The notes under the pieces are model-generated. The model was not told the DNA's origin, did no database searches, and saw nothing but the letters and a program-made list of their open reading frames with translations. Below are positions 27,840 through 56,800 of a DNA stretch of 64,000 nt, piece by piece. The stretch is from contig JAQULF010000001.1 in the NCBI GenBank assembly GCA_028718745.1, positions 111,078 through 175,077 on the forward strand, given 5' to 3'. Origin of the DNA: Patescibacteria group bacterium. Lineage in GTDB: Bacteria > Patescibacteriota > JACPGU01. Positions within the stretch are counted from its first letter, which is position 1. Each line of letters opens with the position of its first letter. A program made the translations under genes and the position numbers.

Positions 27840-27915
27840 AGGTATTGCAAAAAAATATATATCTTGTAAAATAAAATAGAAAATAACTGGTCCATGCGGA
27901 CTGTTGATAATATAT

Positions 27916-27948
27916 CCCCAGTCAAATCCGAAAGGCAATTTGACGGGG
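27916..27948 (+). promoter_or_regulatory. second copy of the conserved hairpin leader motif (CCCCAGTCAAATCCGAAAGGCAATTTGACGGGG + GTAAATATAA), 22 nt upstream of the ATG of 27971
   Basis: Identical 32-nt core to 25565-25596. Confidence 0.6.
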
Positions 27949-27970
27949 TAAATATAACTAAAATAAAAAG

Positions 27971-28366
27971 ATGATTAAAAAGGTAAAACTAATCGCAGGC
28001 ACTTTTGTCTTGTCTACCATGGTTCTTATCGCCAATAAAGTTTCGGCTGTTACCTGTATTACTCCTAATAACCCTCCGGGATGTACTTCGGGCTCTATCG
28101 ATACGAAGGAGTTAGCTGTAGGTAATCTTAATACTTATATAAGCGATGCTTTGGGCTTTGCTATCTGGGCGGCCGGATTATTGTCAGTTGTATTCATAAT
28201 TATTGGAGGCTTCCAATACATTACCGCCGGAGCCAGCAAAGATGGTGCTACCAAAGCAAAAAACACCTTGACTTATGCAATTATCGGTTTAGTTATTGTT
28301 TTGCTAGCGCTTGTTATTCGAAATTATGTTCTTACCAGCATAGGCGTATCCATCCCCGTTCTGTAA
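27971..28366 (+). CDS. TrbC/VirB2-like pilin-type protein (signal peptide + two TM helices)
   Basis: MIKKVKLIAGTFVLSTMVLIANKVSA signal; …FAIWAAGLLSVVFIIIGGFQYITAGASKDGATKAKNTLTYAIIGLVIVLLALVI two-helix hairpin typical of conjugative pilins; truncated paralog at 46198. Confidence 0.45.
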   Translation: MIKKVKLIAGTFVLSTMVLIANKVSAVTCITPNNPPGCTSGSIDTKELAVGNLNTYISDALGFAIWAAGLLSVVFIIIGGFQYITAGASKDGATKAKNTLTYAIIGLVIVLLALVIRNYVLTSIGVSIPVL

Positions 28367-38430: not shown

Positions 38431-41400
38431 CTAGTATCCTACATGCACAAAGTCTTTCATGTAATCGCTTTGGTATAAGCCTTTGACGCCTCTTATCATA
38501 CTGGCTCCACCATAGTATTTAGTAATTAAATCGTCACTTGCTCCATCCTTGCCCTCAAGAAAATCCACATCCTCCTGCCTGAAAGTACCCATGATTGTGG
38601 GGATTAGGTCGTTATCGCTCATTCTATCTCCTATTTTCAGCATATCGGTAATCAGCTTTCTGGTGTTGGCTTGAGACCATTGAATATAGAGAGAATCATC
38701 CTCCTTGCACCATGAAGTAAATGTGTAATCTCCCACGCAGGTGATTTGTATTTCCGACTTAGAAAAACCAAAAAGGATAGTATAAAGAGCTATCGCCGCA
38801 GCAACATAGAAATTAAAGCCTAAACCGGAGATATTATAAGCCGTAACAGCTCCAAGTATAGAGCTGGTGGAACCGGGCGGCAACCCCATTTGAGAATCTA
38901 ATTTCATCAATTGTTTCCCAAATACCAGATTGACTGCTATAAGGATAAGGTCTCCCTGGCCAATCTTGCCGGATTGCATTAATTTATAATTATGATAAAG
39001 CGTGTAAGATGTCCCCGATGGCAATCCAAGCTGTTTGTCCAGCAGGCTCCCGATTTGTCCTTCCAAGAAGTCTTTGCCAAAACCCGAAGTGATTTTATTG
39101 GTGTCGCCGGTGGCAAAGTAATAAATGTTTTTGGCCGTATCTTGGGGAAGGGCAATGCCTACTTTTTTGCTTAATTCTGAATCCAAAAATCCAAAGAAGT
39201 TGTTTCTTAAATTATCATTGCTGAAGGCATTTTTCAGATGATCCATGTTGCGGTCAACGGCAAACTGTGAGAGAGCCTGGGTAATACCCAAAGCATTAGC
39301 CGCGGTTTTTATATCGTCCGGCAGAAGATTGTTTATCAAAATGTAATTAACCCCATAAGCCAAAAGCATATTATTTCTCTCGTCTTCCGTTCCGCTCATC
39401 ATGGTTTTGGAAAAACCAAACGGTATGGGCGGCAACCCATTCATTCTGGCCGTAGCGGCAATCTGGGCGTCGGCATATCTGTACTGTAATTCCTTTCTGG
39501 CATTAGGCACTATTTGACTTTGCGCGCTGGCTATCGCTTGTCTCTGGCCATCAACAAAATTAATGTAGGCCGGATTAGCGGTCCCGTTGGTTAGCTGGGG
39601 AGGCGGAAGATTTTTGTTTTTCTCTACATATTGCTGTGTGTAGTTAGCGCTGGCAATTCCGGCAGCTTTTAGTTTGTCTCCTTCGCTGGCCCACATAACA
39701 TTTTTTATATCGGCATAACTTAATTGAAATTCAGGCGGCAATAATTGAAAATTATTCCCATTCTCATCCTTTTCGGCTTTTAATTTATTAACCGTAAAGG
39801 CCATACCCATTGCTTCCATTACCTTAGGATCTCCCTTATACAACAGCCCCAGATCTTCATCGGAAAGAAATATCCCATCGCCTCCGGCAATCGATTGGCC
39901 ATTCTTGTCTTTAATTACTGTTGCATCATGAATAATGCTCTTCAGGGTATTATTAATAATCAAATCGGAACAAATAGTTCTGTGTTCCTGGACAATTTTT
40001 TTGGCTTCCGCTTCGTTCATTGCCTGTCTAGCCCCGCCGCAAGAATTATTAGCATCCCCGGGATTTATAACATAATTTGGATCCATGCCGGGAATATAAT
40101 ATTGAAACAATGTTATCAGGTTATTTTTCTGACCTTCGAGGTCGCCAAAAAATACTTTTTCGCTCATAGCTCGCATGCCTTGAGCCATTAGAATCGATTT
40201 GGATTTATCCGGATGCAAAATCAAATTTTCCATTGTGCCGGCAGTAAATCCCAGTTTGTCGTCTACATCAATGTGGCCCACCTTTTTGAGAGCGCTAAGC
40301 ACAGTGATTTGTCCTTCGGATGTTCTTAAAAAGCCGGGATCTTTGAAAATACCATAGACCAATCCGCCGGTTGCGATATAGTTTTTCATTTTTTGAGTTT
40401 CAGAACTCGTTGGATCGCCGGTTATTAAATATGAAGCAAAATTATTCAAGAAATCTTGAGTATCGGTTCTGGCAAATTGGTATTTCTGAATAAGAGCCAG
40501 ATAGTCAGCGATTGAAATTCTGTTTTGCAAGAGCAATTTAGTTGGTCCCTCATTGAATTTTGTATCTTCTTCGGTAATATTGCTTATTTTCAAAATGCCG
40601 TCGATATTTTGAGCTCTTATAATATTGTTTGGATCACCCCAATAGGATGCTCCCTGTTTAGAAACATTGGCTGATACATAGCTAGCTATAACCGCATCGG
40701 TCTGACTATAGTCCAGATTCAGTCGGAAAGACGCGGAAAACTTCTTGGCCCCATTAATTCTGATAACATCGCTAATAGAAGAATTTGGCGAAAAGCTTCC
40801 TTCGGCCAGACCCAAAGTTTCTTCAACTAATTTTTGCGAGAAGTTTGCTGGAAAATCTCCTTTGATAGGAAGATTTATTCCAAATCCGGTGATAAGGGCA
40901 ATGTCTTGCGCCGGTAGAGCGGTAAAGAGAGCTTTGCTGAAAATTGATTCCGGGTTGCTAATAACATCGGCTATATCTTGGGAGGTCAGTCCATATTTAG
41001 TTAGCTTTTTTTGTACTTCCTCGGGCAGTTGTCCATAAAGAATCTCTCCGGATTTTTCTGTCGCGTAGGCTTTCTGCGCTCTTTCTTTGTAATCCTTGGT
41101 GCTAATTTCCTGCCGTAAAAATTGAGCTGTGGTTCCAATGTCAACTCCTAATTTTTGGTCTAAGGTACGGCCTAGATTATAGGGAACCGAATTTTCTATA
41201 AAGTCAGTATTTTTGATTTGGTTTAAAGAGCCATATTGTGTAAGATCAAATCCGAATTTTTGAATTAATCTCTTTTCGCCCTCATTGTTATATTGGGCAA
41301 AATTAGCCAGAACCGGAGAAATCATTTTAGCGATATTGGTAGCTATGCCAACAGTTGAATCTCCAGTAAACCACCCGTTAGGCAGAGCCGGGTTGGGATG

Positions 41401-44400
41401 CAATTGATTGAGGGCATTTTCTATCGCTTCCTGCCCTATAGACTCCGACATGTTGCTGGAAACAGAGGCTTGCCCATAAATTCCCATGAAATGAGCCAAT
41501 TGTTCTTCTCCATTTACGGCCAGAAGATTCTCAATACACGATTGAGTTCGGCCATCGTTAGCCACTTGCACTTGACAGTTTGTTCCCGGATTCTCAATCA
41601 TAGCCTTAATTGTTCCAACCGGAAGACTTAGTCCATCGTCTATATTTTTTGCGCCTATTTTCAAAGCGACACCCAAATAATTTCCATTCAAAAGATCGGT
41701 TATGTCCTGACTATTGAGAATATATCCGCCAAATTCCAGATTGAGATTCTTGGTTATATCATTTCTGGCATAGTCTTTCAGATGGCTATCCCCGACTTTC
41801 CCCGCGTATTGATCGGGCGTTATGTCTCCGGCCATAAGAGCGTAAGTAGTGTTTTCGCTCAAGCCAAACAAAGTATCGGCCGATTTAAAAATGTTTTTGA
41901 ACCAAGCTTCATTTTCTGTTCTGATTGGCAAATTATTTATCATATCCTGAATATTATATCCGGGAAAAAAGTAGCCGAATATTTTTTCATTCCCGCCGAC
42001 ACTTTGAATCAATTCAGCTGTGTCAGTTCCCTTAAAACTTTCTTTGGGCATAGATAATGTTTCTTCGATATAGGCCGAACCGATGGATCGAGAATCTATT
42101 TTTGCTTTGCCGGCTTTTATAGTTTGAGTTATTGACCCGGACGGCAGTCCCAAAGATGATTCAACGCTGGAAGCTCCCAGTTCACGACCTATCTCGTCAC
42201 TTTTAAAAATCATGCTGGTAACATCAAAATTATTAAGGCCGATATTTTTTCCGGAATTTTTATTTACCAGATTCTGCCGACTTTGCAAGTTAGCGTTTTC
42301 CATTCTGATTTCGTTGTCCCAAAGATTTAGATTTCCTTCATAAAGCCTAATTTGTCCGGCAGTCTCCGCCGAAGTATCTCCGGAATCTCTTTTTGCTTTT
42401 AATTCATTTAATTTATTTTGAGTATCTGTCAGCTGTTTGTTTAAAAAGTTTAGTTTGGCTATACTGCTTTGATCAGCTATTGCCGTATTTGCTGCGTTTT
42501 GCTCGTCTTCGGCATCGGAAACTTTATTTGCTCCAATAGTATAAAAAACATCTTCGCCATTATTTAGGCGGAAAATGTTTGAGATAGCATCTAGCAGTAA
42601 TCCATGTTCGCCATTGAGTTGATTCTCATCCAGATAAACCCAAATCGACTGATCTCCACTGCCTATTCTTATTTTTTCTTCAATCGAAGCTTTTTCTTCT
42701 TCCCAGGCTTGTTTTTGGCTTTCGCTGACATCAAGCAAACGAAGATAGCCGGCTATAGCCTGGGATCTTTGTTTTAGGCCATCCAATGTTGCTTGGTCTT
42801 GAGCGATAGTTTCGGCCCGGTTAATATCTTGAATAAGAGTAGCTCCGGATGCGGAGGGATATCGAATATATAGAGTATCTAAAACAGATGAGTAGAGATA
42901 ACCGATGTTTTCTAATGGCAAGCCTTTGAAATCAGTTAACCATTTGACAATTACAGCCCTCATATTATCATTTTTGGCCAGAACCTTGGCCAACTCATCT
43001 ATTCCTATGGCATGAAAAACACTTAAGTCATTTTGTAAAATTCTAGCCATGCTTCCTTCCGGCAAATTCCAAACCTCATCTTGTTCATTATAAATTGGCG
43101 CTCCCGCATATAGAAGCGCTCCCTGATTTGGGCCGGCCTCTTGATTGATGGAATAGTTTTCAATTGCGGCATGATTGACAAAACCGGAAGCCTTTGAATT
43201 CAGCAGCGAATCTCCCACCGCTTTTTTATAAATAGAAGGCGATAGTCCGTTTATCAGCCGACTGGAATAACCTTGTTCCGGAGGGAGATTAAGTATGGCA
43301 TCGACTTGCTCCGGGTTTTGGAAAAGCTGATTCCATTTATCTATCCCCACATTTTCTTTAATTTGATTAAGCGATTCCGGAGCAAAACTACCGCCGGCAA
43401 GATTGAGATTTTGTTCGATTAATACTTGTCCGACAAAAATTGAAAAAGAGGCGGGATCTCCATTGGGAACAAAATAGTCTAATGATCCAAGACGGATGCC
43501 AAATTCCGACTCAATCTTTCTTTTGCCTAGACTCGTCAGGATTTCATCCGAAGTTGTTCCGGAAAGCGAACCTTCGGCCAATCCCAATCTTTCGGCGACT
43601 ATCTCCCTCCCGATATTTGTTTGAATTTCATCTTCCGTATTTCCTCTCAAACCTTTGGCGGGTATTTTTAAATAATCAGATAATATATTTTTGCCGATAT
43701 TGCCGTATAATTTATCAGCGGTAGAATTATCTTCTTGAGAATTAATAATTATGCCGCCAATTTCCTCTTGCAGAGCCAGCAATCCCATCGCCTTTACTAT
43801 TTGAGGCAAACTGTCACCCTCTTTTATATTCAACTGACTAAAATCATATCCGGTACTTGCTCCCAGTAAGCTAAATAAATCAGCCAGTCCCTGGTTTTGA
43901 AAAAGTTCTCCAAAGGATGATCCTACACCGGAGGTTGGCGAGGAAAATCCCGAGCCCTTCCCGACCGCTTCGGATTGGCGAATAACCATAATATCTACCG
44001 GCGGTTTGGCGGTTATCTTGGTTCTCAAAATGCCTTTTTGATAAAGCCGTCGGTCCACCATATCAATTCCGGCAATATCCATAGCTTGTCCGGAAAAGTG
44101 AGGGCTGATAGAGCGATCTTCGTCGCTGGTAAAATCCCATTCGCGGGAAAATTGCCGGCCGGTCGAGTCATATTCGCTTTTGATTCTTCTCACTTTAATC
44201 TTGCGGAATCCGGCTCCGCCCAATTCGGTTGGTCGAACCAAGTATTTCAAGGCCTCTAAAATCCGGTTATCTACCTGATGAGTGCGGATATAATACTTGT
44301 CCTTTCCAGAGATTATCACTTTGGAAGAGAGAGTGGTAAGGAGAATATCCTCCAACTGAGAGAGAGCGGCTCGGGGGTCTTTAAGGCTACTGCTGTATTT

Positions 44401-45126
44401 GTTGCAGGGGTTGTTTTCATTTTTTTCCATATCGGCCAACTGTTTCTCGATAACATCGGAGCCGACAGTATTGGTCGGGTCATTGGTAGTTAGGGACAAA
44501 AGATTAGTTTCCAATTCCCTGACTTTTTGCAAACATAGATCATTTTGTTCTCGAACAGCCCTTTCCTCTACGGTTTTCAAAGAGGCTATCATTGTTTCGG
44601 CAGCCGTGTTAATAGCTAGGTTTCTGGCATCTGGCTCATTCGCGAGAGCTAAGACAGCTTGTTCATTGAGAGTGGTGGGCGGATGAAAGGCTGTTTTGCC
44701 GGCCGATCCGTTTCTTAAAACATAACCTGTAATAGCCAGAACGATGGCACCAACAATAACAATAACGGCTAAAATTATAAAAATAGGAACAAGATAGGGA
44801 GCCAGAGCAACCCAAGCTGATTTCAGAGCTTGTTTTTTTAATTGTGATTTTGCTGCATCGACTGCAGCGCCGGCAGTTTCATTGGTAGCAGAACCACCTC
44901 CTGGTCCCGAGGCGCTCGGTTTATCGCCGGCCGGTTTTCCGGCTGGTGTTTCTTGTTTTGCTCCCACTCTCGCGGCCTCCGCCTCTTGCCTTCTTTGATT
45001 TTCAGCGATATTTCTTTGTCTTTCAGCCTCCCGATGTTGTTCGATCGAAGCCTGTGCCCTTTCCATTTCATGCATCCATGCCAGCCTATCATCAAAGTCG
45101 GAATTTGTTTTGTTTTCCTCTGCCAT
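38431..45126 (-). CDS. giant (2231 aa) membrane-anchored extracellular protein of unknown function (charged N-terminal cytoplasmic segment, single TM helix, huge ectodomain with coiled-coil stretches)
   Basis: Uninterrupted 6.7-kb ORF; N-terminus MAEENKTNSDFDDRLAWMHEMERAQASIEQHREAERQRN…, TM WVALAPYLVPIFIILAVIVIVGAIVLAITGYVL, no recognisable catalytic motif. Confidence 0.6.
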   Translation of the reverse strand: MAEENKTNSDFDDRLAWMHEMERAQASIEQHREAERQRNIAENQRRQEAEAARVGAKQETPAGKPAGDKPSASGPGGGSATNETAGAAVDAAKSQLKKQALKSAWVALAPYLVPIFIILAVIVIVGAIVLAITGYVLRNGSAGKTAFHPPTTLNEQAVLALANEPDARNLAINTAAETMIASLKTVEERAVREQNDLCLQKVRELETNLLSLTTNDPTNTVGSDVIEKQLADMEKNENNPCNKYSSSLKDPRAALSQLEDILLTTLSSKVIISGKDKYYIRTHQVDNRILEALKYLVRPTELGGAGFRKIKVRRIKSEYDSTGRQFSREWDFTSDEDRSISPHFSGQAMDIAGIDMVDRRLYQKGILRTKITAKPPVDIMVIRQSEAVGKGSGFSSPTSGVGSSFGELFQNQGLADLFSLLGASTGYDFSQLNIKEGDSLPQIVKAMGLLALQEEIGGIIINSQEDNSTADKLYGNIGKNILSDYLKIPAKGLRGNTEDEIQTNIGREIVAERLGLAEGSLSGTTSDEILTSLGKRKIESEFGIRLGSLDYFVPNGDPASFSIFVGQVLIEQNLNLAGGSFAPESLNQIKENVGIDKWNQLFQNPEQVDAILNLPPEQGYSSRLINGLSPSIYKKAVGDSLLNSKASGFVNHAAIENYSINQEAGPNQGALLYAGAPIYNEQDEVWNLPEGSMARILQNDLSVFHAIGIDELAKVLAKNDNMRAVIVKWLTDFKGLPLENIGYLYSSVLDTLYIRYPSASGATLIQDINRAETIAQDQATLDGLKQRSQAIAGYLRLLDVSESQKQAWEEEKASIEEKIRIGSGDQSIWVYLDENQLNGEHGLLLDAISNIFRLNNGEDVFYTIGANKVSDAEDEQNAANTAIADQSSIAKLNFLNKQLTDTQNKLNELKAKRDSGDTSAETAGQIRLYEGNLNLWDNEIRMENANLQSRQNLVNKNSGKNIGLNNFDVTSMIFKSDEIGRELGASSVESSLGLPSGSITQTIKAGKAKIDSRSIGSAYIEETLSMPKESFKGTDTAELIQSVGGNEKIFGYFFPGYNIQDMINNLPIRTENEAWFKNIFKSADTLFGLSENTTYALMAGDITPDQYAGKVGDSHLKDYARNDITKNLNLEFGGYILNSQDITDLLNGNYLGVALKIGAKNIDDGLSLPVGTIKAMIENPGTNCQVQVANDGRTQSCIENLLAVNGEEQLAHFMGIYGQASVSSNMSESIGQEAIENALNQLHPNPALPNGWFTGDSTVGIATNIAKMISPVLANFAQYNNEGEKRLIQKFGFDLTQYGSLNQIKNTDFIENSVPYNLGRTLDQKLGVDIGTTAQFLRQEISTKDYKERAQKAYATEKSGEILYGQLPEEVQKKLTKYGLTSQDIADVISNPESIFSKALFTALPAQDIALITGFGINLPIKGDFPANFSQKLVEETLGLAEGSFSPNSSISDVIRINGAKKFSASFRLNLDYSQTDAVIASYVSANVSKQGASYWGDPNNIIRAQNIDGILKISNITEEDTKFNEGPTKLLLQNRISIADYLALIQKYQFARTDTQDFLNNFASYLITGDPTSSETQKMKNYIATGGLVYGIFKDPGFLRTSEGQITVLSALKKVGHIDVDDKLGFTAGTMENLILHPDKSKSILMAQGMRAMSEKVFFGDLEGQKNNLITLFQYYIPGMDPNYVINPGDANNSCGGARQAMNEAEAKKIVQEHRTICSDLIINNTLKSIIHDATVIKDKNGQSIAGGDGIFLSDEDLGLLYKGDPKVMEAMGMAFTVNKLKAEKDENGNNFQLLPPEFQLSYADIKNVMWASEGDKLKAAGIASANYTQQYVEKNKNLPPPQLTNGTANPAYINFVDGQRQAIASAQSQIVPNARKELQYRYADAQIAATARMNGLPPIPFGFSKTMMSGTEDERNNMLLAYGVNYILINNLLPDDIKTAANALGITQALSQFAVDRNMDHLKNAFSNDNLRNNFFGFLDSELSKKVGIALPQDTAKNIYYFATGDTNKITSGFGKDFLEGQIGSLLDKQLGLPSGTSYTLYHNYKLMQSGKIGQGDLILIAVNLVFGKQLMKLDSQMGLPPGSTSSILGAVTAYNISGLGFNFYVAAAIALYTILFGFSKSEIQITCVGDYTFTSWCKEDDSLYIQWSQANTRKLITDMLKIGDRMSDNDLIPTIMGTFRQEDVDFLEGKDGASDDLITKYYGGASMIRGVKGLYQSDYMKDFVHVGY

Positions 45127-46003: not shown

Positions 46004-46197
46004 AAAAACATCATATCACATTTTTTCATTTAACTCCCCGTAAGACTTAAAGATTTGTAACATTTTTCTGTTTTTATTATATATTATTTTTTTTGCAATC
46101 AAAGTACCTTTTTAATTTTTTTATGTTTTTAAATAGATGCACTTTACAAGAGGGAGATAGAGAGTAGAATAAAAACAAATAATGTTTTAAAAAAATT

Positions 46198-46401
46198 ATG
46201 GAGCCAATACAGGGATTAACCATCGATTCTATTATTAGCGCGCTCTTAAGCTTTGCCGTTTGGGCGGCTGGATTATTATCAATTGTCTTTATAATAGTTA
46301 GCGGGTTCTTTTTTATCACTTCGGGGGGAAACCCGGATGGGATAAAAAAAGGAAAAAGTGCCATTACTTATGCAATTATAGAGATTTGCGTAATATATTA
46401 A
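46198..46401 (+). CDS. truncated paralog of the VirB2/TrbC-like pilin 27971..28366 (lacks signal peptide)
   Basis: …FAVWAAGLLSIVFIIVSGFFFITSGGNPDGIKKGKSAITYAIIE vs …FAIWAAGLLSVVFIIIGGFQYITAGASKDGATKAKNTLTYAIIG. Confidence 0.35.
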   Translation: MEPIQGLTIDSIISALLSFAVWAAGLLSIVFIIVSGFFFITSGGNPDGIKKGKSAITYAIIEICVIY

Positions 46402-47247: not shown

Positions 47248-48120
47248 GTGAAAAAAATCATTGTGGTACTAGCTGTAATTCTGTTTGGCCTCTCGTTCTG
47301 TCTGAATGCGTCGGCCGTTGTTCCCAATAAAGACAAGGTCGTCGGGAAACCGGCCAATCCAAAGTTGATTGTCAAGATGGACAAAAGCAAGGCCGGCGGC
47401 AACATCGTTGTTTTTTCCGAAGATGGCGGCAAAACCTTTTACCCCATTTTCGACGGCGACGGGGTTTGCGACCAAAATGTTTTTGTCTGGTCGCCGGACG
47501 GCAAATATGTCTTCTGGATCAGCAGCGATATGAGCTGCGAAGCTCCCTTCCTCAAAGACGGGGTATGGCATCACTACGCTCGGCTGTATGATCCGGCCAA
47601 AAGAATACTATTTCTCTGGCCATCGTTGCCATCGGCTCCCAACTATCACCATACTCTGGGCGTGAACTGGGCAAAAGGGTCGGGGCATGACATTCTCATG
47701 AGGACAGCCGACAAGGGTCAGAATTCGGGAGAAACGATCGAGGCCACTGTTGATGAGTGGGAGAAAAATTCCTCTCGAGTGGATATGGATCCCTATCTCC
47801 AGTGGCTGGCTTCTTGGATCACCTCTGTTGTGAAAAAGAACCAGCTAGACGCTCTTTATTCCTTGACGAAAAACCTCCCCCCGAAGGAAGTTGACAGTAT
47901 CGCGATAATGAAAAAAGAATACAGCCCCAAAAACCTCAAAAGAATCTTCGTAAGAGAATTTGATTCTGATGAGGAAGGGGCAAGAGGGGTAGAAGTTCGC
48001 GTTAATACATTCTCAAACAACGCCTCCTATTTTTTTGAAATAGGCGTTGTTGTCAAAAATAAATTTCCGCTTCCGCCCGAAATAATTTCTTTCCGAATCG
48101 GGATGGAGGGAGGCGATTAG
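47248..48120 (+). CDS. hypothetical secreted protein (GC-richer than surroundings), GTG start
   Basis: Signal peptide MKKIIVVLAVILFGLSFCLNASA; promoter TTGCCT-17-TATAAT and RBS AGGAG upstream. Confidence 0.45.
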   Translation: MKKIIVVLAVILFGLSFCLNASAVVPNKDKVVGKPANPKLIVKMDKSKAGGNIVVFSEDGGKTFYPIFDGDGVCDQNVFVWSPDGKYVFWISSDMSCEAPFLKDGVWHHYARLYDPAKRILFLWPSLPSAPNYHHTLGVNWAKGSGHDILMRTADKGQNSGETIEATVDEWEKNSSRVDMDPYLQWLASWITSVVKKNQLDALYSLTKNLPPKEVDSIAIMKKEYSPKNLKRIFVREFDSDEEGARGVEVRVNTFSNNASYFFEIGVVVKNKFPLPPEIISFRIGMEGGD

Positions 48121-48176: not shown

Positions 48177-49472
48177 TTAGCGCCCATTATTAGAAAAATG
48201 AACACAGTCAGAGCCGGTATAAAAATCACCGCTCGGGGTATTGCAGCCGTTGAAATGTATAAGTGCGTAGTTAAACAGAAAGCCCACTAGTTTTTTACTG
48301 CAATGAGCCATGTTGCATTCATAATCTCCGGAGCCGTAAATATCCACTCCTTGACCGCCATTATGGTTTGATTCTCCCGGTTTTGCGGCAATTGTTCCGC
48401 CATTCAAATAATCTTGATAAAGATTTTTTTGGTGTTCACAATTTCGGTAGGCTGACTGTATGCTGAAACATTTACCACAAGCTTGAGAAGCCTTTTTTAA
48501 AGCTTCAGCCATATTGTAGGTTATATATCTTGGTGGATCGGTTACATTTATTAGACTGGTATCAATCGGAACTAATAATAATTTATCAACCACCGCTTGG
48601 CATATTTTATAGTTATTACCATAAGTACCTACTTCTTTACAATTCTCTTCTAAATAACAACTATTATTTGGTCCGACAGATGGTATCACGGCTTTTTCAC
48701 ACTTTACATTTTCCATTCTGGTCGCTTGATTTTCAGCTCGGCTGGTAGTTTGGTCGTAGAGCCTAGAATCTCTTATCTGGTTGGCAGCTTCCGGGAAGTT
48801 CGGAGGAGATGCTTGCAGTGCCGCAATCATATCTTTAAATTTCCTAAGTCCAGCCTCTCCCAATTGAAAGCGCATTTCTACTAGAATTTGCTTAGCTGAA
48901 CCGGGAAGGGAATCATAAGTGTCTTGCCCGACTATGCTCGCAGCGCTTGCTTGAAGAGAGCTAAGATCGCTACTAAAAATAGCATCGGCTTGATCTTGAG
49001 TTATAGTGGGAGCTCCGGAACATTGAGCTTTTGCATCAGGACAGCATTTACTAATAAAGTCTGCCGGATCCATATTTGTAGCACTTGTAAAACTACTGTT
49101 GCTTCCGCCTTCCAGATTGTGTCCATAACCAATAGTACATTTTTTGTTAGTATCTTTATAGGGGTAAAGCCTCAATCCCTCATCGCTTTGCAACTGTTGT
49201 TTTAACGCGCTTGTATCTAGACTTGATCCAGCGCAGCCATAAGATCCTCCCGCTCCGCCTCCGCCAGTGTCCCCGCCCTGTCCCAACTTGCAGGCCAGAT
49301 CAAAAGCCTCCTGCGTTTTGCCAGTTAGAACTACATCTAAGGCTACACGCCAATTGCAGACTCGCTCAAAATGGCTTTTGACGACTCCCAGCATTATGAC
49401 AAACAGAAGAATAGGAATAAAAATTCCCACAATAACTATGGCAATAGCTGCAGCTTTTTGAACACTGTACAT
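48177..49472 (-). CDS. membrane-anchored bifunctional peptidoglycan hydrolase: GH24 phage-type lysozyme domain + M15 (VanY-like) D-Ala-D-Ala carboxypeptidase domain
   Basis: N-terminal TM; EGLRLYPYKDTNKKCTIGYGHNL (T4-lysozyme-like catalytic Glu + TIGYGH); Gly-rich linker; C-terminal …AAKPGESNHNGGQGVDIYG (M15 H/D zinc-ligand motif). Confidence 0.65.
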   Translation of the reverse strand: MYSVQKAAAIAIVIVGIFIPILLFVIMLGVVKSHFERVCNWRVALDVVLTGKTQEAFDLACKLGQGGDTGGGGAGGSYGCAGSSLDTSALKQQLQSDEGLRLYPYKDTNKKCTIGYGHNLEGGSNSSFTSATNMDPADFISKCCPDAKAQCSGAPTITQDQADAIFSSDLSSLQASAASIVGQDTYDSLPGSAKQILVEMRFQLGEAGLRKFKDMIAALQASPPNFPEAANQIRDSRLYDQTTSRAENQATRMENVKCEKAVIPSVGPNNSCYLEENCKEVGTYGNNYKICQAVVDKLLLVPIDTSLINVTDPPRYITYNMAEALKKASQACGKCFSIQSAYRNCEHQKNLYQDYLNGGTIAAKPGESNHNGGQGVDIYGSGDYECNMAHCSKKLVGFLFNYALIHFNGCNTPSGDFYTGSDCVHFSNNGR

Positions 49473-49482
49473 TTTGGTTTTT

Positions 49483-51084
49483 TTAGATTCCTTTTTCTAG
49501 CGCTAACTGATATACCCCATCGTTATTTAAAATATAGATTCTTCCATTTCCGGAAAGAATGGATTTGATATTTCCCGGCAGGGTATCTTTTTGGTAATTA
49601 ACCGTCTCTTTAACGCCGGAAATTTTAATTAGCATCAAACTATTATCAGAAGATGACAAAGCAACAAAGCTTTGATTATCTATCCAAGAACAATTCGCTA
49701 GATTTCCTTGCAATTTCAAATCAAGTGTTGTCGAACCTTCAGCGGCGCTAAAATCATAAAGCATAATATTGTTTCCGGATTGATAAATCAGCTTGCTGCC
49801 ATCAGGAGAGAACTGTGCGCCGGTAGATATGCCATCCTCGGTTATTTTGAGAATTGTGCGGGTTTCAAAACTATAAGCATAAACATTGACCTCCTTTGCA
49901 TTGCTGTTAGCTCCGTTTTCCATATTGGCAAAAATAGCCACTCTTTTTCCGTCTGGAGACCAGACCACATCCGGTTCAAATTCAACTGTTTTTATAGCCG
50001 GAATAATAACTTCATAATTGGATCCATCCGGATTGGCGATAGCAAAATCTTTGACCAAATCATTTTGGAAAAGATAGACAATCTTGTCTCCTTGCGGACT
50101 GAAAGAAACATTTTTGATAGGAGGCTGAAGATCTTTTGTGGTGATATTAAGCAGATCGGTTCGATCCAGATTTACCAGCCAATTGAGCTTGGTTCCATCC
50201 CCATATTTTTCAAGGTAAGGTATTTGGGCTACTTTGGACTTGGCCGAATTGGTTACCTTTACGACAAGCTGTCGAGAAGTGGGCGACCAGGCAACTTTGC
50301 TTACTTGTTCAATTGCTTCTATCATAGTCGTTTCTTTCTGATTGGCAAAATTGTATTCCTTGAGATTGTATCCCGCATCAGTTTTGTCAAAATAGGAGAG
50401 TGAATCAATCTCTTTATTATAATTCGCAAAAAATACTTCTTTATCAATAACCTTTTCTATCTTTTGATAAGCTGAAAATTGAAATGACAGGGTATAATTA
50501 TTATTGCCCGGAGAAACACTGATGGTTTTTTGCAGATCGGCAAAACCTTCTTTTCGAGCTGTAACAATATGATCTCCTTTGGAGAGGATCAGCTGGTAGG
50601 GAGAAGTAATGTTTTTATATTCCATGCCGTCGACAAGAAGACTGAATCCCGCTTGATTGGCGGAAACAGTAACGGCGATTTTTTTATTGATAGAATAAAA
50701 ATAATAAGCAGTGCCGCCGACCAGAACCAATAGAAATACAGCTACGGCTGCTGCGATTAGGTTTCTCTTAAGTTTAGGGTTAGCGGCTTTTCTAATCATA
50801 ACCGCCTTGGCTTTTTCTTCCTTCTGAAAAGCCTCTTTGATAGGGGAACTGGTTACCGACTCTTTCGGCAACTCAACCTTATTGTTGCCAAAATAGAAAT
50901 CTTCTTTTTTTGCTTCTTGAGACGGAATAGTGTCTTGGTTCACCTTTGGGAAACCTGTCGAAAGACTATCCTTGCCCCCTGTGGATAAGTCTGGATCTGG
51001 TAATTTGATTTCTGGTGAAATGGGTATATTTCGACTGGATTCTTCTTCGCTTGACCCTTGCGGGCTTGTATTTGTGTCTTCCAC
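49483..51084 (-). CDS. membrane-anchored PEGA-domain + TolB-like beta-propeller protein
   Basis: TM helix; PEGA-like LLVDGMEYKNITSPYQLILSKGDHIVTARKEGF; repeated WSPDGK / FSPDGS / FSPQGD blades. Confidence 0.55.
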   Translation of the reverse strand: MEDTNTSPQGSSEEESSRNIPISPEIKLPDPDLSTGGKDSLSTGFPKVNQDTIPSQEAKKEDFYFGNNKVELPKESVTSSPIKEAFQKEEKAKAVMIRKAANPKLKRNLIAAAVAVFLLVLVGGTAYYFYSINKKIAVTVSANQAGFSLLVDGMEYKNITSPYQLILSKGDHIVTARKEGFADLQKTISVSPGNNNYTLSFQFSAYQKIEKVIDKEVFFANYNKEIDSLSYFDKTDAGYNLKEYNFANQKETTMIEAIEQVSKVAWSPTSRQLVVKVTNSAKSKVAQIPYLEKYGDGTKLNWLVNLDRTDLLNITTKDLQPPIKNVSFSPQGDKIVYLFQNDLVKDFAIANPDGSNYEVIIPAIKTVEFEPDVVWSPDGKRVAIFANMENGANSNAKEVNVYAYSFETRTILKITEDGISTGAQFSPDGSKLIYQSGNNIMLYDFSAAEGSTTLDLKLQGNLANCSWIDNQSFVALSSSDNSLMLIKISGVKETVNYQKDTLPGNIKSILSGNGRIYILNNDGVYQLALEKGI

Positions 51085-53032: not shown

Positions 53033-53045
53033 CATTAATGAAAGA

Positions 53046-53375: not shown

Positions 53376-53387
53376 GAAGGAAAATTT

Positions 53388-53839: not shown

Positions 53840-56800
53840 ATGTTTATCAAACACAAATACAAAACAAAAAAATTCATCTTCATCTTTTTGGCAACCATCT
53901 TAGCCGTCCAAATCGGAGGGTCTTTTTTTGGAACTTTTTTAAATAAAGCTTTAGCAACCGGTACCACTGGAAGCTGGGTAAATCTATCAATTCCTTCAGG
54001 AGCAACTGAATGGGATGTAAGTAGTGATCTTCAATTAGCATGTTCGAATATATCCGGACTCGATACTAATATATATCCTGATCAAGACTCTGCAAACGGA
54101 TATTATCAACAGGGTACTAGCCACGCGACCTATAGTGTTCGCTGTTCCTGGGATTGGGCTACTAACCATGAGTATGCTGGCAAAAATATTGTTTTATATA
54201 AATTAAGGAATAAAGCTACTGACAAAGATATGATTGATGTACAGCCAATTGCCGGTGCGCTTACAGGAGAATGTACCCTTAGCAATCTTAACACTAAAAT
54301 AGAATGTCGTTTTGAAGATAGCTCAAGATGGGTAGTTGATGTTAAAGCAGACAAACCATTTAAAGCAAGCGACTATCAATTGATGGCAGAATTTGGTGCG
54401 ACAGGCGGAGCTCCTTTGAGTCAAATAGACGATGCTAAATTAATAGAATCACAGCAATATTTTAATGCTATACAAACGATTACAAATAGAGTTTTGGACA
54501 ATGGATACGCAGAAAAAGTAAATGATTATGATATTGCTAACCTCCACAGAACTAATTTTATAAATGCTTTGAAAGATTCTAAAACATGTAAGGATGCTGC
54601 AAAATATGTTTCAACCTCACCTCCAACAGAGGGAGATTGGCTAGCCTATCTTACTAATCCTAAGGTTCTTTTTCAAAACATAGCTGATTTTTTTACGAAT
54701 GCGCAGGATATTAACGCTGCTTGTACTCAATACATATCTCAAGTAAATGGGAATGTTTATATAGTTAATGCCGCATGGGCCGCAACTTCGAACTGCGCTG
54801 CAGGAGGAGCTACAACAGCTGATGCTCTTAAGACATGTGTAGCACAAGATGCTACCTATCAAAAAGCTATCGAATTAAATACAGCAAGGCAAAAAGGGGC
54901 GGAACAGGCAGTTATTGATCAGTCAAAAACAGGTCCTAAATTATCCGATGCGGGTGGTTGTGGCGCAGCATTAGATGATCCTAATGCTAGTGTTGATATC
55001 AGTCAGCTGATTGAGCCTTTTCCGGCTGCTATCATGTGTTTTGTTGAGAAGTATGTATTAAATGGAATACAATATGTTTCCAAGAACTGGGTCGATCAGA
55101 ATTTTAGCAGTTTATTAACGGTGGGGATTATTGATAATCCCGTGGCCCAATCTGTGGCTAGAGTCTTTATTAATTTTATAAACAGTCTCTTTCTTTTACT
55201 GGCTCTAATCTCAATTTTTATTACCACTTTAAAAATTGATATACCCTCAATGGATCTCAAGTCCTGGCAGTTAAAAAGAATGATCCCAACTATAATCGCT
55301 ACTATAATTTTGGTTAATTATAGTTTGAGTATTGCCAATCTAGTAATAGCGATCATGGATAGTTTGGTTGGATATTTTGGAGCGGGAGGGGGAAATTTCT
55401 TTAGCTTTGGAACCGATCCCAATTCTCTTATGTGGTCAGTAGGAGGCATTCCTTGGGGGTTGCTGGCATTTAGAATTTTATTTTTAGTTGCTTTCTTGCT
55501 GGTAATCATTTATTTAATGCTTGTTTTATGGGTTAGGAAATTAGCGCTGGTACTTTTAGCTATGTTCGCTCCAGTTCCTTATTTGGCTAATGCTATACCA
55601 ATAAGCTCGATAAAAGAATTAACAGGATCTTGGTGGAAAAACTTTATGAATTGGGCTTTTATGGGGCCATTGGTCGCTGCTCTTTTATATGCTGCTTCAA
55701 TTGCCATAACCAGTGCGACCGAAACCAAACTCGGGATTGGAAATCTTCCTATTAATTTTGGTGCTGGCGAAATTATACCGGTATCGCCTAGTGGATTTTG
55801 GGCCGGAATTAGTCTGACCAACATGGTTTTGGTTGGCATAATTTTATATCTGGCAGCGACCATGCCTTTGAAATTGGGCGGAGCGGTGATGAGTGCGGTT
55901 CAAAAAGCGACGACCGGCAGAGCGGGGAAATTGGCGGGCACAATAGCAAAAGGAACGGCCGGATTTTATGCCAGCAAGGCGGCCAGAGGATTGGGCATAC
56001 CTTCTATCGAAGAGATTAAAAAGGGATTTGCGGAAAACAGAAGAGTGCAATTGGCCAAAGCTTCCGAAAAAGGAGCTAAGAAAAGAGAAAAAGCATTCGG
56101 AGGCGTTAGTGCCATGACAGATATTTTTGAAAACTATTGGAATATGAAGGGAATTGGTAAGCTGCCTTTTTCAACAGCCAGACAAAAGAAAGCCGAAGCC
56201 GATTTATTAGCAAAGAACAGAAAAGTCAGGGAACTTAAAGATAGTGGCGCAAATGCAGATGAAATAGTGGGAGCAACAAAAGAAGCTGATGCCGCGAGAA
56301 TGAGGCTTATGAATATAAGACCGACAAACTACAATACCAGAGTAGAGAGATTGGGGAGAGAGTCGGAAGAGTTGAAAAAGATAGCAAGCATAAATAGATC
56401 GGAAGAATTGAATTCGCTTCTTGATAAAGCAATTATGGAAAAAAATCAAACAAGAGCCTCGGCCATCATGCGACAGATGGCGAGTAATGCCGATGAGAAT
56501 GAATACTTGAATCGCCATAATTTTAGTAGCGGTAGAGAGGGCATGCAGGCGTTTACTAGAGAAGTATTAATAGGAAAACTGGGTATGAACAGACAGCAGG
56601 CTTTGGAATTGGAAATGGATATTTCTAATACTGCTGAAAAGAATGGACATATGCAAGCTTCCAAGACCGTATACATGGAGGATGGGATATTGGATCATGC
56701 TACAGCTACACAACACCAAGATGCTATCAGAGCAGAGACTATAAAGATGGATTCTCAAAAGCAAGCGATCAATTTCAATCGTCTAGCCTATGGTTATGAG

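What the first reader, a model, noticed from the sequence alone, without database searches (positions are those of the whole stretch)
38431..45126. 2231-aa single-pass membrane-anchored giant protein of unknown function
One uninterrupted 6.7-kb ORF with a charged Glu/Arg/Gln-rich cytoplasmic N-terminus (~110 aa) and one TM helix. The >2000-aa extracellular region has coiled-coil stretches but no recognisable enzymatic motif, no obvious tandem Ig/cadherin repeats, and a Cys-containing C-terminus. Giant envelope proteins in small-genome symbionts are candidates for host attachment. Several plus-strand ORFs inside it are clearly non-coding shadows.
Basis: seen in the sequence. Interest (0 to 1): 0.5.

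Follow-up and report, generated by a model that had tools for sequence, protein, structure and literature searches.

The report
Giant envelope protein linked to T4SS
The 2231-residue ORF is real and belongs to an undescribed family of giant membrane proteins in ultra-small Patescibacteria, whose genes sit almost always beside cell-wall-cutting enzymes and the type IV secretion system, a machine shown essential for epibiotic growth in the one member tested; this suggests a wall-remodelling or bridging part of that machine rather than a simple adhesin.

Summary
The ORF (38431-45126, minus strand, 2231 aa) is real. It is identical to an NCBI Patescibacteria MAG protein and colinear with homologues from independent assemblies, so it is not a chimera. 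A conserved hydrophobic segment lies about 130 aa from the C-terminus, so it is probably not single-pass. Residues 265-390, the most conserved region, carry an SxHxxGxAxD signature like LAS/M15 (Hedgehog/DD-peptidase) enzymes. A ~30-aa 'LGLPxGS' unit recurs about 10-14 times. Pfam, NCBIfam, PHROGs, PDB sequence searches and fold searches give no significant match, and LAS membership remains unproven because the second His ligand is missing. An exhaustive HMM search finds only about 246 representatives (mostly 1400-3100 aa). The titled loci are Microgenomates, Berkelbacteria, Saccharibacteria and Nealsonbacteria. Gene context is the strongest evidence. In 19 of 20 metagenomic loci with at least 7 kb upstream (15 of 16 non-redundant), the order is PrgI-TrsD-VirB4-muramidase-PEGA/beta-propeller-membrane peptidase-GIANT on one strand. 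The window holds the same genes rearranged. Best reading: an accessory envelope scaffold of the T4SS-linked wall-lytic module. This rests on context, not experiment.

The parts
38431..45126 (-). Giant ORF, 2231 aa plus stop codon
   Evidence: Identical to NCBI PHU42_00865.
44821..45126 (-). N-terminal tail, aa 1-102: charged E/R/Q-rich part, then a Pro/Gly/Ala-rich part. Inferred cytoplasmic.
   Evidence: Composition. Four Lys lie just before the TM segment, which fits the positive-inside rule (inference). A long tail occurs only in the window's subfamily; most relatives have the hydrophobic segment at residues 5-17.
44722..44820 (-). Membrane anchor TM1, aa 103-135
   Evidence: Kyte-Doolittle peak of 3.36.
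44335..44721 (-). Helical stalk, aa 136-264, containing Cys198 and Cys241
   Evidence: AF2 helices at model residues 17-129, pLDDT about 57-81, mostly 66-81.
43957..44334 (-). LAS-like conserved core, aa 265-390. Most of the family-wide invariant columns fall here: D286, R288, G304, H343, D350, Q384.
   Evidence: Weak Pfam hits, all to the Hedgehog/DD-peptidase clan. hhalign against the neighbouring gene's VanY domain gives probability 44%. Fold not confirmed.
44077..44106 (-). Motif SPHFSGQAMD (SxHxxGxAxD, i.e. H-x6-D)
   Evidence: Translation check. H is conserved in 96/98 and D in 93/98 family members.
38977..43956 (-). Long alpha-helical region, aa 391-2050, with about 10-14 dispersed ~30-aa units of the form G-x3-h-[ED]-x2-LGLPxGS. 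Contains the conserved Cys pairs 1184/1197 and 1696/1719.
   Evidence: AF2 secondary structure was modelled only up to aa 1200; helicity beyond that is inferred.
38755..38964 (-). C-terminal amphipathic and hydrophobic region, aa 2055-2124: a candidate second membrane segment or helical hairpin
   Evidence: KD 1.72 here and up to 3.27 in relatives. Conserved at 130-200 aa from the C-terminus.
38434..38754 (-). Conserved C-terminal domain, aa 2125-2231, with Cys2130 and Cys2140. Ends in H-V-G-Y-COOH.
   Evidence: Alignments.
48177..49472 (-). Peptidoglycan hydrolase (phage-lysozyme domain plus VanY/M15 domain). A conserved neighbour, on the same strand as the giant gene.
   Evidence: Pfam. Orthologues lie next to giant genes in other loci.
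49483..51084 (-). PEGA plus beta-propeller (PD40/DPPIV_N-like) exported protein. A conserved neighbour.
   Evidence: Pfam. Synteny.
47248..48120 (+). Conserved 290-aa ORF of unknown function between the hydrolase and the giant gene
   Evidence: Orthologue in L001 at E 4.6e-85. No family hit.
53840..57127 (+). 1095-aa VirB6-like protein. Its orthologue in L001 carries Pfam TrbL_3.
   Evidence: No direct Pfam hit in this window.
58372..59013 (+). PrgI / VirB3-like protein
   Evidence: Pfam PrgI, E 8.8e-11.
59120..59845 (+). TrsD-like protein, resembling the VirB4 N-terminal region
   Evidence: Weak TraC_F_IV hit. Position matches the TrsD seed hits in other loci. TrsD is described in PMC12102498.
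59959..62034 (+). VirB4 ATPase
   Evidence: Pfam P-loop_TraG at E 9e-29, plus CagE_TrbE_VirB.
27063..28366 (+). Two T4SS (VirB2-like) pilin genes: 27063-27839 and 27971-28366
   Evidence: phmmer matches to Pfam-annotated T4SS_pilin genes of L001, L003 and L005, E down to 1e-46.

Best explanation
The ORF encodes a member of an undescribed family of giant envelope proteins; every titled locus is from Patescibacteria. The family is an accessory part of the cell-wall-remodelling module attached to the Patescibacteria type IV secretion system (T4SS).

Inferred anatomy:
- The N-terminal tail is cytoplasmic and one strong transmembrane helix anchors the protein in the cell's own membrane.
- Just outside the membrane sits a conserved LAS-like core (DxR ... 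SxHxxGQAxDI ... Q). I infer that it binds or cleaves peptidoglycan stem peptides. In this subfamily it has lost two residues that most relatives keep (His307 to Phe, Glu353 to Gly), so it may bind or regulate rather than hydrolyse. The degenerate LytM domain of the pCF10 T4SS hydrolase PrgK behaves this way.
- About 1,700 mostly helical residues follow, built partly from repeated LGLPxGS helix-loop-helix units. They would form an elongated extracytoplasmic scaffold.
- The protein ends in a hydrophobic segment or hairpin and a small Cys-containing domain.

Proposed mechanism: the protein works with the neighbouring muramidase/VanY hydrolase, the PEGA/beta-propeller protein and, in most relatives, a membrane-anchored M23, NlpC/P60 or C39-like peptidase encoded immediately upstream (two further loci give only sub-threshold Peptidase_M15_3 hits). 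Together they would open and shape a passage through the wall for the T4SS or its pilus.

Shown: the ORF, the family, the motifs, the hydrophobic segments and the gene linkage. Inferred: topology, catalytic status, the scaffold role and physical association with the T4SS.
For: Family and conservation:
- Seven close homologues at 35-60% identity, 2134-2768 aa.
- 246 representatives at E <= 1e-3 among 1.84 billion cluster representatives, mostly 1400-3100 aa.
- Titled genome loci are Microgenomates, Berkelbacteria, Saccharibacteria and Nealsonbacteria.

Gene linkage:
- The window's subfamily keeps the order dnaA-dnaN-DciA | GIANT | lysozyme/SLT hydrolase | PEGA-propeller | GGDEF | VirB6-like | PrgI | VirB4.
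- Berkelbacteria locus L008, which has ATP synthase genes upstream instead, reads PrgI-265aa-VirB4-glucosaminidase/VanY-347aa-GIANT, all on one strand.
- Of 20 metagenomic loci with at least 7 kb upstream, 19 have VirB4 upstream on the same strand, 1.3-6.1 kb from the giant gene. These collapse to 15 non-redundant VirB4 clusters at 51-89% identity.
- Linkage survives three different gene orders: VirB4-Hyd-PEGA-X-Giant, VirB4-X-Giant-Hyd, and the divergent layout in the window.

Wall-enzyme context:
- The gene immediately upstream in other loci encodes a membrane-anchored M23, NlpC/P60-CHAP or C39-like peptidase. L023 and L011 give only sub-threshold Peptidase_M15_3 hits (E 0.014-0.017), and L036 and L056 give no peptidase hit.
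- Even L043, which lacks a nearby VirB4, has an M23 peptidase and a YkuD L,D-transpeptidase upstream.

LAS-like core:
- It holds most family-wide invariant columns.
- The recurrent sub-threshold Pfam hits are VanY, Peptidase_M15_4, Extensin-like_C, DUF5715 and HH_signal.
- hhalign puts RIKSEY and SPHFSGQAMDI in register with the SAYR and SNHNGGQGVDI motifs of the neighbour's bona fide VanY domain.

Literature:
- The Patescibacteria T4SS is chromosomal, near dnaA, lacks a relaxase and has no detected adhesin (PMC12102498).
- It is essential for epibiotic growth in Southlakia, where a 1113-aa hypothetical protein with a Hedgehog/DD-peptidase domain (SEML1_0007) lies between VirB4 and the lysozyme and is essential (PMC10633639).
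- The degenerate LytM domain of PrgK regulates its muramidase (PMC11323569).
Against: - All functional evidence is guilt by association. There are no expression, localisation or interaction data.
- LAS homology is not statistically established. The best single-member Pfam E-value is 0.0075. PDB profile searches are empty. hhalign gives only 44% probability.
- The canonical second His ligand is absent.
- In the window the giant gene is 14.8 kb from virB4, on the opposite strand, with TA modules, a GGDEF gene and a phage-like gene in between.
- The whole region also lies next to oriC genes, so some of the synteny could be inherited gene order.
- L043 shows that the gene can occur without a VirB4 within 9 kb.
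- The family (about 246 representatives) seems much smaller than the reported spread of VirB4 (2,474 genes in PMC12102498). It is therefore either not universal or too divergent to detect.
Confidence: 0.45

Rival explanations
1. Host-attachment adhesin. The giant extracellular part would reach the host bacterium's surface and bind it, filling the role of the PrgB-type adhesin that has not been found in Patescibacteria T4SS clusters.
For: - It is a very large protein with an N-terminal anchor and conserved Cys pairs suited to an extracytoplasmic location.
- No adhesin was detected in Patescibacteria T4SS loci (PMC12102498).
- Its gene is linked to the T4SS.
Against: - No Ig, cadherin, lectin or beta-helix domain and no LPXTG motif. 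The modelled half is all-alpha.
- The strongest conservation lies in the membrane-proximal enzyme-like core and at the C-terminus. Adhesins usually vary most at their exposed ends.
- The conserved C-terminal hydrophobic segment is not expected in a simple adhesin.
- Its closest gene partners are wall hydrolases.
Confidence: 0.15
2. A housekeeping cell-wall or cell-division scaffold of the bacterium's own envelope. It would organise peptidoglycan hydrolases and transpeptidases, and lie next to the T4SS only because both sit in the conserved oriC-proximal region.
For: - It is flanked by dnaN/dnaA in many loci.
- L043 has a YkuD L,D-transpeptidase and an M23 peptidase but no VirB4 within 9.3 kb.
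- All close partners act on peptidoglycan.
Against: - Linkage to VirB4 is more constant than linkage to dnaN. L048, L053 and L061 have VirB4 upstream and no detectable dnaN in the 0.9-3.7 kb available downstream of the giant gene. L008 has ATP synthase genes rather than oriC genes upstream of its T4SS genes; its downstream side is cut by the contig end.
- Linkage survives several gene orders.
- The family is small and patchy for a housekeeping function.
Confidence: 0.2
3. An envelope-penetrating 'tape-measure/translocon' element. The N-terminus stays anchored in the epibiont, the long helical body is extended, and the C-terminal hydrophobic hairpin inserts into the host membrane while the LAS-like core and partner hydrolases breach the walls. 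This would resemble the tape-measure protein pb2 of phage T5.
For: - The feature combination matches pb2: a long helical protein, a hydrophobic stretch near the C-terminus and a metallopeptidase-like motif (pb2 as described in bioRxiv 10.1101/2022.09.20.507954).
- Cryo-ET of a Patescibacterium shows an unexplained lance or tube joining parasite and host (PMC11880426).
Against: - No sequence similarity to any PHROG tape-measure family.
- Nothing here shows extension, secretion or host-membrane insertion.
- The peptidase-like motif is N-terminal here rather than C-terminal as in pb2.
- The hydrophobic segment in this protein is only moderately hydrophobic (KD 1.72).
Confidence: 0.1
4. Artefact: a chimeric misassembly or a non-coding long ORF.
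For: None found. The idea was raised only because the source is a metagenome-assembled genome.
Against: - Full-length colinear homologues exist in independent assemblies and sources (NCBI, JGI, ENA, Logan).
- G+C content of 0.40-0.43 resembles the rest of the window.
- Conservation runs end to end.
Confidence: 0.01

Closest known systems
PrgK of Enterococcus plasmid pCF10 (VirB1-type T4SS cell-wall hydrolase of monoderms)
   Same: - Encoded in a Gram-positive-type T4SS cluster.
- N-terminal membrane anchor.
- An LAS-family (LytM) domain that is degenerate, lacks metal, and regulates a muramidase rather than cutting peptidoglycan (PMC11323569).
- Here, likewise, a possibly degenerate LAS-like core sits beside a muramidase gene.
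   Different: - PrgK is 871 aa (length from my own knowledge, not checked here) and also carries SLT and CHAP domains. The giant protein has neither and is 2.5 times larger.
- Its remainder is helical with a repeated LGLPxGS unit, and it has a C-terminal hydrophobic segment.
- No detectable sequence similarity. Here the muramidase is a separate protein.
SEML1_0007 of Southlakia epibionticum (essential 1113-aa hypothetical protein in the Saccharibacteria T4SS cluster)
   Same: - A large unannotated protein between VirB4 and a lysozyme gene, near dnaA.
- It contains a Hedgehog/DD-peptidase-type domain.
- It is essential in Tn-seq (PMC10633639 supplementary tables).
   Different: - Its peptidase domain is C-terminal (951-1105), not membrane-proximal and N-terminal.
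- It is half the length.
- By architecture it resembles the variable upstream 'X' peptidases (N-terminal TM, stalk, C-terminal peptidase) more than it resembles the giant protein.
LAS metallopeptidases: M15 (VanY, VanX, phage L-Ala-D-Glu peptidases), the Hedgehog N-terminal domain, and M23/LytM
   Same: - The SxHxxGxAxD[IV] signature with H-x6-D.
- An upstream I-x-S-x-Y motif in register with SxYR.
- Weak Pfam hits only to this clan.
   Different: - No downstream His ligand. The corresponding strand has an invariant Gln.
- Extra invariant D286 and R288.
- A variable insertion of up to about 100 aa in many relatives.
- No significant profile or fold match.
Phage T5 tape-measure protein pb2
   Same: [quoted passage not shown]
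   Different: - pb2 is a phage tail component with no N-terminal membrane anchor.
- Its motif order is reversed.
- No PHROG similarity.
Extended VirB6 / TraG_N-type T4SS membrane proteins
   Same: Large T4SS-cluster membrane proteins with big hydrophilic domains (PMC12857230).
   Different: - Those proteins are polytopic, with five or more helices. The giant protein has one strong N-terminal helix and one or two weak C-terminal helices.
- A separate VirB6-like gene already exists at 53840-57127.

Membership tests
LAS / Peptidase MD clan (M15 VanY-type, Hedgehog/DD-peptidase fold) | First metal-ligand motif H-x6-D within SxHxxGxAxD | tested here: met
   The motif SPHFSGQAMD lies at aa 341-350. 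H343 is conserved in 96/98 and D350 in 93/98 family members.
LAS / Peptidase MD clan (M15 VanY-type, Hedgehog/DD-peptidase fold) | Second His ligand (ExxH, HxH or a lone His) C-terminal to the H-x6-D motif | tested here: not met
   No conserved His occurs downstream. The following conserved strand carries an invariant Q384 (98/98). An upstream GGAGH His is present in 63/98 relatives but is Phe307 in this protein.
LAS / Peptidase MD clan (M15 VanY-type, Hedgehog/DD-peptidase fold) | Significant profile match to a clan member | tested here: inconclusive
   - Only sub-threshold hits: VanY in 4/29 members (best E 0.0075), Peptidase_M15_4 in 4/29, Extensin-like_C in 4/29, DUF5715 in 3/29, HH_signal in 2/29.
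- hhalign against the neighbour's VanY domain gives probability 43.7% and E 2.4e-4 for a single comparison.
- PDB profile searches are empty.
- Assignment of these Pfam families to one clan is from my own knowledge.
LAS / Peptidase MD clan (M15 VanY-type, Hedgehog/DD-peptidase fold) | Hedgehog/DD-peptidase fold | tested here: inconclusive
   - The region has pLDDT < 50 in the 1065-aa model.
- The 171-aa model built from 29 sequences has pLDDT 68.8.
LAS / Peptidase MD clan (M15 VanY-type, Hedgehog/DD-peptidase fold) | Zinc binding and peptidoglycan peptidase activity | not testable with these tools
   Needs purified protein.
VirB1/PrgK-type T4SS cell-wall hydrolases | Encoded within or next to a T4SS (virB4) gene cluster | tested here: met
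   - 19 of 20 loci with at least 7 kb upstream have VirB4 upstream on the same strand.
- In L008 the gene lies directly downstream.
- In the window it is 14.8 kb from virB4 in a divergent arrangement.
VirB1/PrgK-type T4SS cell-wall hydrolases | Lytic transglycosylase/muramidase (SLT, lysozyme) or CHAP catalytic domain | tested here: not met
   No Pfam or NCBIfam domain at E <= 1, and none in five diverse relatives. These domains are carried by separate neighbouring genes.
Gram-positive T4SS surface adhesins (PrgB-type) | LPXTG sorting signal and Ig-like or adhesin domains | tested here: not met
   No LPx[TSA]G motif. The modelled half is all-alpha. No Pfam adhesin domains.
VirB6 / TrbL / extended VirB6 | Polytopic core of five or more transmembrane helices | tested here: not met
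   Only the segments at 103-135 and ~2090-2123 exceed the hydropathy thresholds used (>1.4; >=1.6). The family-wide pattern is one N-terminal and one or two C-terminal segments.
Phage tape-measure proteins | Sequence membership in a tape-measure family and location in a tail gene module | tested here: not met
   The only PHROG hit is an unknown-function family at E 0.099. The neighbours are T4SS and wall genes, not tail genes.

The most novel reading that the evidence does not exclude
The giant protein could be the missing structural link of the Patescibacteria T4SS to the host. In this reading it is an N-terminally anchored, extended helical 'ruler/translocon' whose C-terminal hydrophobic hairpin inserts into the host envelope. 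With its partner hydrolases it would build the lance- or tube-like conduit seen by cryo-ET between epibiont and host. That would be a T4SS-associated analogue of a phage tape-measure protein.
Probability: 0.1. Interest if true: 0.85.

Novelty: new variant of a known kind. Interest (0 to 1): 0.55.

Why it matters
Where it has been tested (Southlakia), the Patescibacteria T4SS is essential for growth on the host. It lacks a relaxase, a recognisable adhesin and, in most lineages, a recognisable VirB8. What it transports and how it crosses two cell walls are unknown.

A conserved 1,400-3,100-aa protein sits in the same gene cluster, next to the wall hydrolases. The published surveys I read describe no such family; the surveys state that genes without homology are drawn grey. 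It is therefore an obvious untested candidate for the part that organises wall breaching or contact with the host.

This analysis defines the family, its invariant residues (D286, R288, H343, D350, Q384) and its fixed gene partners. That gives concrete targets for mutagenesis in cultivable Saccharibacteria and for cryo-ET labelling. If the LAS-like core proves real but non-canonical, it would also add a divergent branch to the Hedgehog/DD-peptidase superfamily.

Tried and rejected
Family and structure searches that gave nothing significant:
- Whole-protein scans against Pfam (E <= 1), NCBIfam and PHROGs.
- PDB sequence searches with the single protein, the 8-sequence full-length profile and two LAS-region profiles. 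The GerM, GCN4/tropomyosin and ribosomal-protein hits are chance or compositional.
- AF2 model of aa 136-1200 against the PDB with Foldseek: best E 0.34, generic helical proteins only.
- The afdb50 library was not available.

Searches limited by the tools:
- The search for homologous proteins with the domain alignment A2 returned nothing. My guess is that the candidate stage excludes giant proteins when the query is short.
- With the 41-sequence alignment it returned only the known seven. A deeper alignment from that tool was therefore not possible.
A 5-sequence subset worked.

Ideas checked and dropped:
- L012 (Bryobacterales) is a chance pattern match in a non-coding frame.
- No internal duplications by BLASTP self-comparison.
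- No paralogue of the giant protein elsewhere in the window.
- N-terminus derived from the upstream 'X' peptidases: only compositional or weak similarity, E >= 1.
- The single perfect DnaA box at 50980 as an alternative origin between the divergent operons: box counts are barely above chance (3 of 100 shuffles reach the observed count), and three one-mismatch boxes lie in the dnaA-dnaN spacer instead.
- A VirB8-like (NTF2) domain in the small beta-sheet at model residues 607-640: no PDB match supports it.
- A helix-hairpin-helix reading of the LGLPxGS unit: considered from memory only, with no Pfam support.

The 2026 preprint on Actinobacteria defence (PMC13622651) concerns Esx/T7SS and was not relevant.

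Full report
**1. The observation**

The window has one uninterrupted ORF at 38431-45126 on the minus strand, with an ATG start and 2231 codons. Its product is identical to an NCBI protein annotated only as 'hypothetical protein PHU42_00865' from a Patescibacteria MAG.

The N-terminal 102 residues are rich in Ala, Glu, Lys, Arg and Gln. A very hydrophobic stretch follows at 103-135 (Kyte-Doolittle 3.36). G+C content (0.40-0.43) is like the rest of the window.

Six plus-strand ORFs of 91-98 aa lie inside the gene. Shuffling the codon order gives 3.5 +/- 1.6 such ORFs, 10% of shuffles reach six, and the longest observed is shorter than the shuffle mean.

Misassembly is excluded. Homologues from independent assemblies align along the whole length, with invariant columns from residue 97 to 2230.

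**2. Corrections to the description**

- *Membrane segments.* A second uncharged hydrophobic stretch (about 2090-2123, KD 1.72) precedes a conserved 107-aa C-terminal domain. Across the family a hydrophobic segment always lies 130-200 residues from the C-terminus. It is often double, and in some members it is strongly hydrophobic (KD up to 3.27). 'Single-pass' is therefore doubtful.
- *Enzyme-like motif.* Residues 341-350 read SPHFSGQAMD (window 44077-44106). This is the SxHxxGxAxD signature of LAS metallopeptidases (M15 VanY/VanX, Hedgehog N-terminal domain), as I know it from those families.
- *Repeats.* A ~30-residue unit (G-x3-h-[E/D]-x2-L-G-L-P-x-G-S) recurs from residue 506 to 2099. A regex for its core matches 8 times against 0.07 expected, although the regex was derived post hoc. 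An iterated profile finds 12-16 copies in each of the eight close homologues. In the AF2 model the motif lies at helix-loop-helix junctions.
- *Cysteines.* Three Cys pairs (1184/1197, 1696/1719, 2130/2140) are invariant in the close family.

**3. The family**

The word-indexed search gave seven homologues at 35-60% identity, 2134-2768 aa, none with a Pfam domain. An exhaustive HMMER search of 1.84 billion cluster representatives, using the profile of residues 136-1200, found 246 proteins at E <= 1e-3 and 120 at E <= 1e-30. Most are 1400-3100 aa long. The stretch matched most often is profile positions ~145-600, which is real residues ~280-735.

Titled genome loci come from Microgenomates, Berkelbacteria, Saccharibacteria and Nealsonbacteria.

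In a 41-sequence full-length alignment the only invariant columns are D286, R288, G304, Q384, G389 and G478. The near-invariant ones include E329, S341, H343, A348, D350, I351 and D355. Across 98 aligned LAS-region sequences the counts are D286 98/98, R288 94, H343 96, D350 93 and Q384 98. The enzyme-like core is thus the most constrained part of the protein.

Most relatives have GGAGH, DISE and a Cys at the position of R359. The window's subfamily has GGAGF, DI[A/S]G and Arg instead. Many relatives carry an insertion of up to ~100 aa between the S-x-E and S-x-H motifs.

**4. Is the core a LAS domain?**

*For:*
- The H-x6-D signature.
- Scanning 29 family members one by one against Pfam gives only sub-threshold hits. 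The five most recurrent are VanY (4 members, best E 0.0075), Peptidase_M15_4 (4), Extensin-like_C (4), DUF5715 (3) and HH_signal (2). To my knowledge these belong to one clan.
- hhalign against the bona fide VanY domain of the neighbouring hydrolase puts RIKSEY opposite SAYR and SPHFSGQAMDI opposite SNHNGGQGVDI. Probability is only 44%.

*Against or inconclusive:*
- There is no conserved second His.
- Profile searches of PDB sequences are empty.
- AF2 does not fold the region confidently, either within the 1065-aa model (pLDDT < 50) or alone with 29 sequences (pLDDT 68.8).

I therefore call it LAS-like, not a member of the family.

The rest of the modelled half is helical and matches no solved structure (best Foldseek E 0.34). 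NCBIfam and PHROGs are also negative, as are five diverse relatives in Pfam.

**5. Gene context (the strongest evidence)**

*In the window.* The minus-strand run is PEGA/beta-propeller (49483-51084), lysozyme+VanY hydrolase (48177-49472), PIN, a 95-aa ORF, a Bro-N phage-like gene, then the giant gene. The run converges on DciA-dnaN-dnaA. Diverging from it on the plus strand are GGDEF, two toxin-antitoxin pairs, a 1095-aa VirB6-like protein, PrgI, a TrsD-like protein and VirB4. Two T4SS pilin genes lie at 27-28 kb.

*In close homologues and Microgenomates.* The same layout recurs, and there the 1080-aa protein carries Pfam TrbL_3.

*In Berkelbacteria (L008).* The region upstream holds ATP synthase genes, yet the order is PrgI-265aa-VirB4-glucosaminidase/VanY-347aa-giant, all on one strand.

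*In Nealsonbacteria (L011).* The order is glucosaminidase/CHAP, two propellers, a 361-aa membrane protein, then a split giant homologue, followed by recF-dnaN-dnaA.

*In metagenomes.* A scan with the GGAGH/DISE-type motif gave 51 loci. Seeded phmmer annotation shows the canonical order PrgI-TrsD-VirB4-hydrolase-PEGA/propeller-X-GIANT, with dnaN and dnaA on the opposite strand.
- Of 20 loci with at least 7 kb upstream, 19 have VirB4 upstream on the same strand, 1.3-6.1 kb away.
- These 19 collapse to 15 clusters whose VirB4 proteins are 51-89% identical.
- A shorter class (~1500 aa) has the order VirB4-X-giant-hydrolase.

*Gene X.* This gene, immediately upstream of the giant gene, encodes a protein with a charged N-terminus, one TM helix and a C-terminal wall peptidase of variable type: M23, NlpC/P60-CHAP or C39-like. 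Two further loci give only weak M15_3 hits, and two give no peptidase hit.

*The exception.* L043 lacks VirB4 within 9.3 kb. It still has an M23 peptidase and a YkuD L,D-transpeptidase next to the giant gene.

**6. Literature**

- Quinonero-Coronel et al. 2025 (PMC12102498) describe the Patescibacteria T4SS as MPF-FATA-like and chromosomal. It is often near dnaA/dnaN, lacks a relaxase, has VirB2-like pilin arrays, shows few VirB1 or VirB8 hits and has no PrgB-type adhesin. Genes without homology are drawn grey.
- Wang et al. 2023 (PMC10633639) show that the Southlakia T4SS cluster SEML1_0006-0019 is essential for epibiotic growth. Their tables list SEML1_0007 as a 1113-aa hypothetical, essential protein between VirB4 and a lysozyme, with a C-terminal Hedgehog/DD-peptidase domain. 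SEML1_0005 is a PEGA protein.
- I found no paper describing the giant family itself.
- Sun et al. 2024 (PMC11323569) show that the membrane-anchored T4SS hydrolase PrgK has a degenerate, metal-free LytM domain that down-regulates its muramidase.
- The tape-measure protein pb2 of phage T5 combines a long helical body, a hydrophobic stretch and a muralytic metallopeptidase motif.
- Cryo-ET of Mycosynbacter shows an unassigned lance or tube between parasite and host (PMC11880426).

**7. Interpretation**

*Shown:* a real, conserved giant protein family whose titled members are all Patescibacteria. It has an N-terminal anchor, a highly constrained LAS-like core, a long helical body with a dispersed repeat, and a conserved C-terminal hydrophobic segment plus small domain. 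Its gene is persistently linked to peptidoglycan hydrolases and to virB4 through at least three gene orders.

*Inferred:* the protein is an accessory scaffold or regulator of the wall-lytic module that lets the T4SS or its pilus cross the wall. The core would bind or cut stem peptides. In this subfamily it is perhaps only a binding or regulatory module, given the His307-to-Phe and Glu353-to-Gly changes.

*Rivals:* an adhesin, a T4SS-independent wall or division scaffold, and a tape-measure-like translocon reaching the host. None is excluded. The context argues most strongly against the simple adhesin reading and against an artefact.

**8. Novelty and score**

The T4SS cluster and its position near oriC are already published. 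The giant family, its motifs and its fixed place in the cluster are not, as far as the held literature shows. I rate it a new variant of a known kind: a T4SS-associated, membrane-anchored wall-remodelling protein. Function rests on context only. Interest is 0.55.

Noticed in passing
window 45170-46003 (-), 46077-46364 (-), 46398-46832 (-): A 277-aa Bro-N protein with a very strong match to phage family phrog_15286 (E 3.7e-86) is wedged between the giant gene and the hydrolase genes. Beside it are a PIN_3 toxin and a 95-aa ORF that is probably its antitoxin. These genes are absent at this position in related loci, so this looks like a small mobile insertion.
   Followed up: partly
window 52375-53723 (+): Two toxin-antitoxin pairs lie between the GGDEF gene and the VirB6-like gene: a nucleotidyltransferase/HepT pair and a BrnT-like/CopG-like pair. 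They interrupt the T4SS cluster compared with L001-L007.
   Followed up: no
window 57939-58313 (+): A gene of the '23S rRNA intervening-sequence protein' family (four-helix bundle) is inserted between the 247-aa ORF and PrgI inside the T4SS cluster.
   Followed up: no
window 47248-48120 (+); L001 8823-9584 (-): A 290-aa ORF with no family match is conserved (E 4.6e-85) between the hydrolase and the giant gene, on the opposite strand, in the window's subfamily. Its function is unknown.
   Followed up: partly
L051 7857-9230, L048 3908-5182 and 5331-6740, L040 8343-9674, L043 7785-9353, L023 8679-9641, L011 3746-4831: In most other family loci, the gene immediately upstream of the giant gene encodes a membrane-anchored peptidase whose catalytic domain type varies between lineages: M23, NlpC/P60-CHAP, C39-like or weak M15_3. 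The architecture stays the same (charged N-terminus, TM helix, stalk, peptidase). This gene is missing in the window's subfamily, where the giant protein itself has a long charged N-terminal tail.
   Followed up: partly
L043 1-16403: This is the one locus with more than 7 kb upstream and no VirB4. There the giant homologue is preceded by an M23 peptidase, a YkuD L,D-transpeptidase with PG_binding_4, and an Ig/fn3 surface protein. It may represent a T4SS-independent deployment of the module.
   Followed up: partly
window 38434-38445 (-), and the C-termini of P0001-P0044: The family ends in a conserved H-[IV]-[GSNQ]-[FY]-COOH. The terminal aromatic residue recalls the C-terminal signal of outer-membrane proteins, which is odd for organisms regarded as monoderm. 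This is unexplained.
   Followed up: no
window 36675-36881: Three one-mismatch DnaA boxes cluster in the dnaA-dnaN spacer, which is probably oriC. The only perfect box (50980) lies inside the beta-propeller gene. The cumulative GC-skew minimum is near 48-50 kb rather than at dnaA.
   Followed up: partly
window 27063-28366 (+): Two VirB2-like T4SS pilin genes sit beside a solute-binding-protein gene, about 30 kb from virB4 on the other side of the oriC genes. The T4SS genes are thus split around the origin.
   Followed up: partly
L011 4831-5811 and 5724-9767: The Nealsonbacteria homologue appears as two overlapping ORFs (326 and 1347 aa). This is either a frameshift or assembly error, or a genuinely split and much shorter version of the protein.
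   Followed up: no
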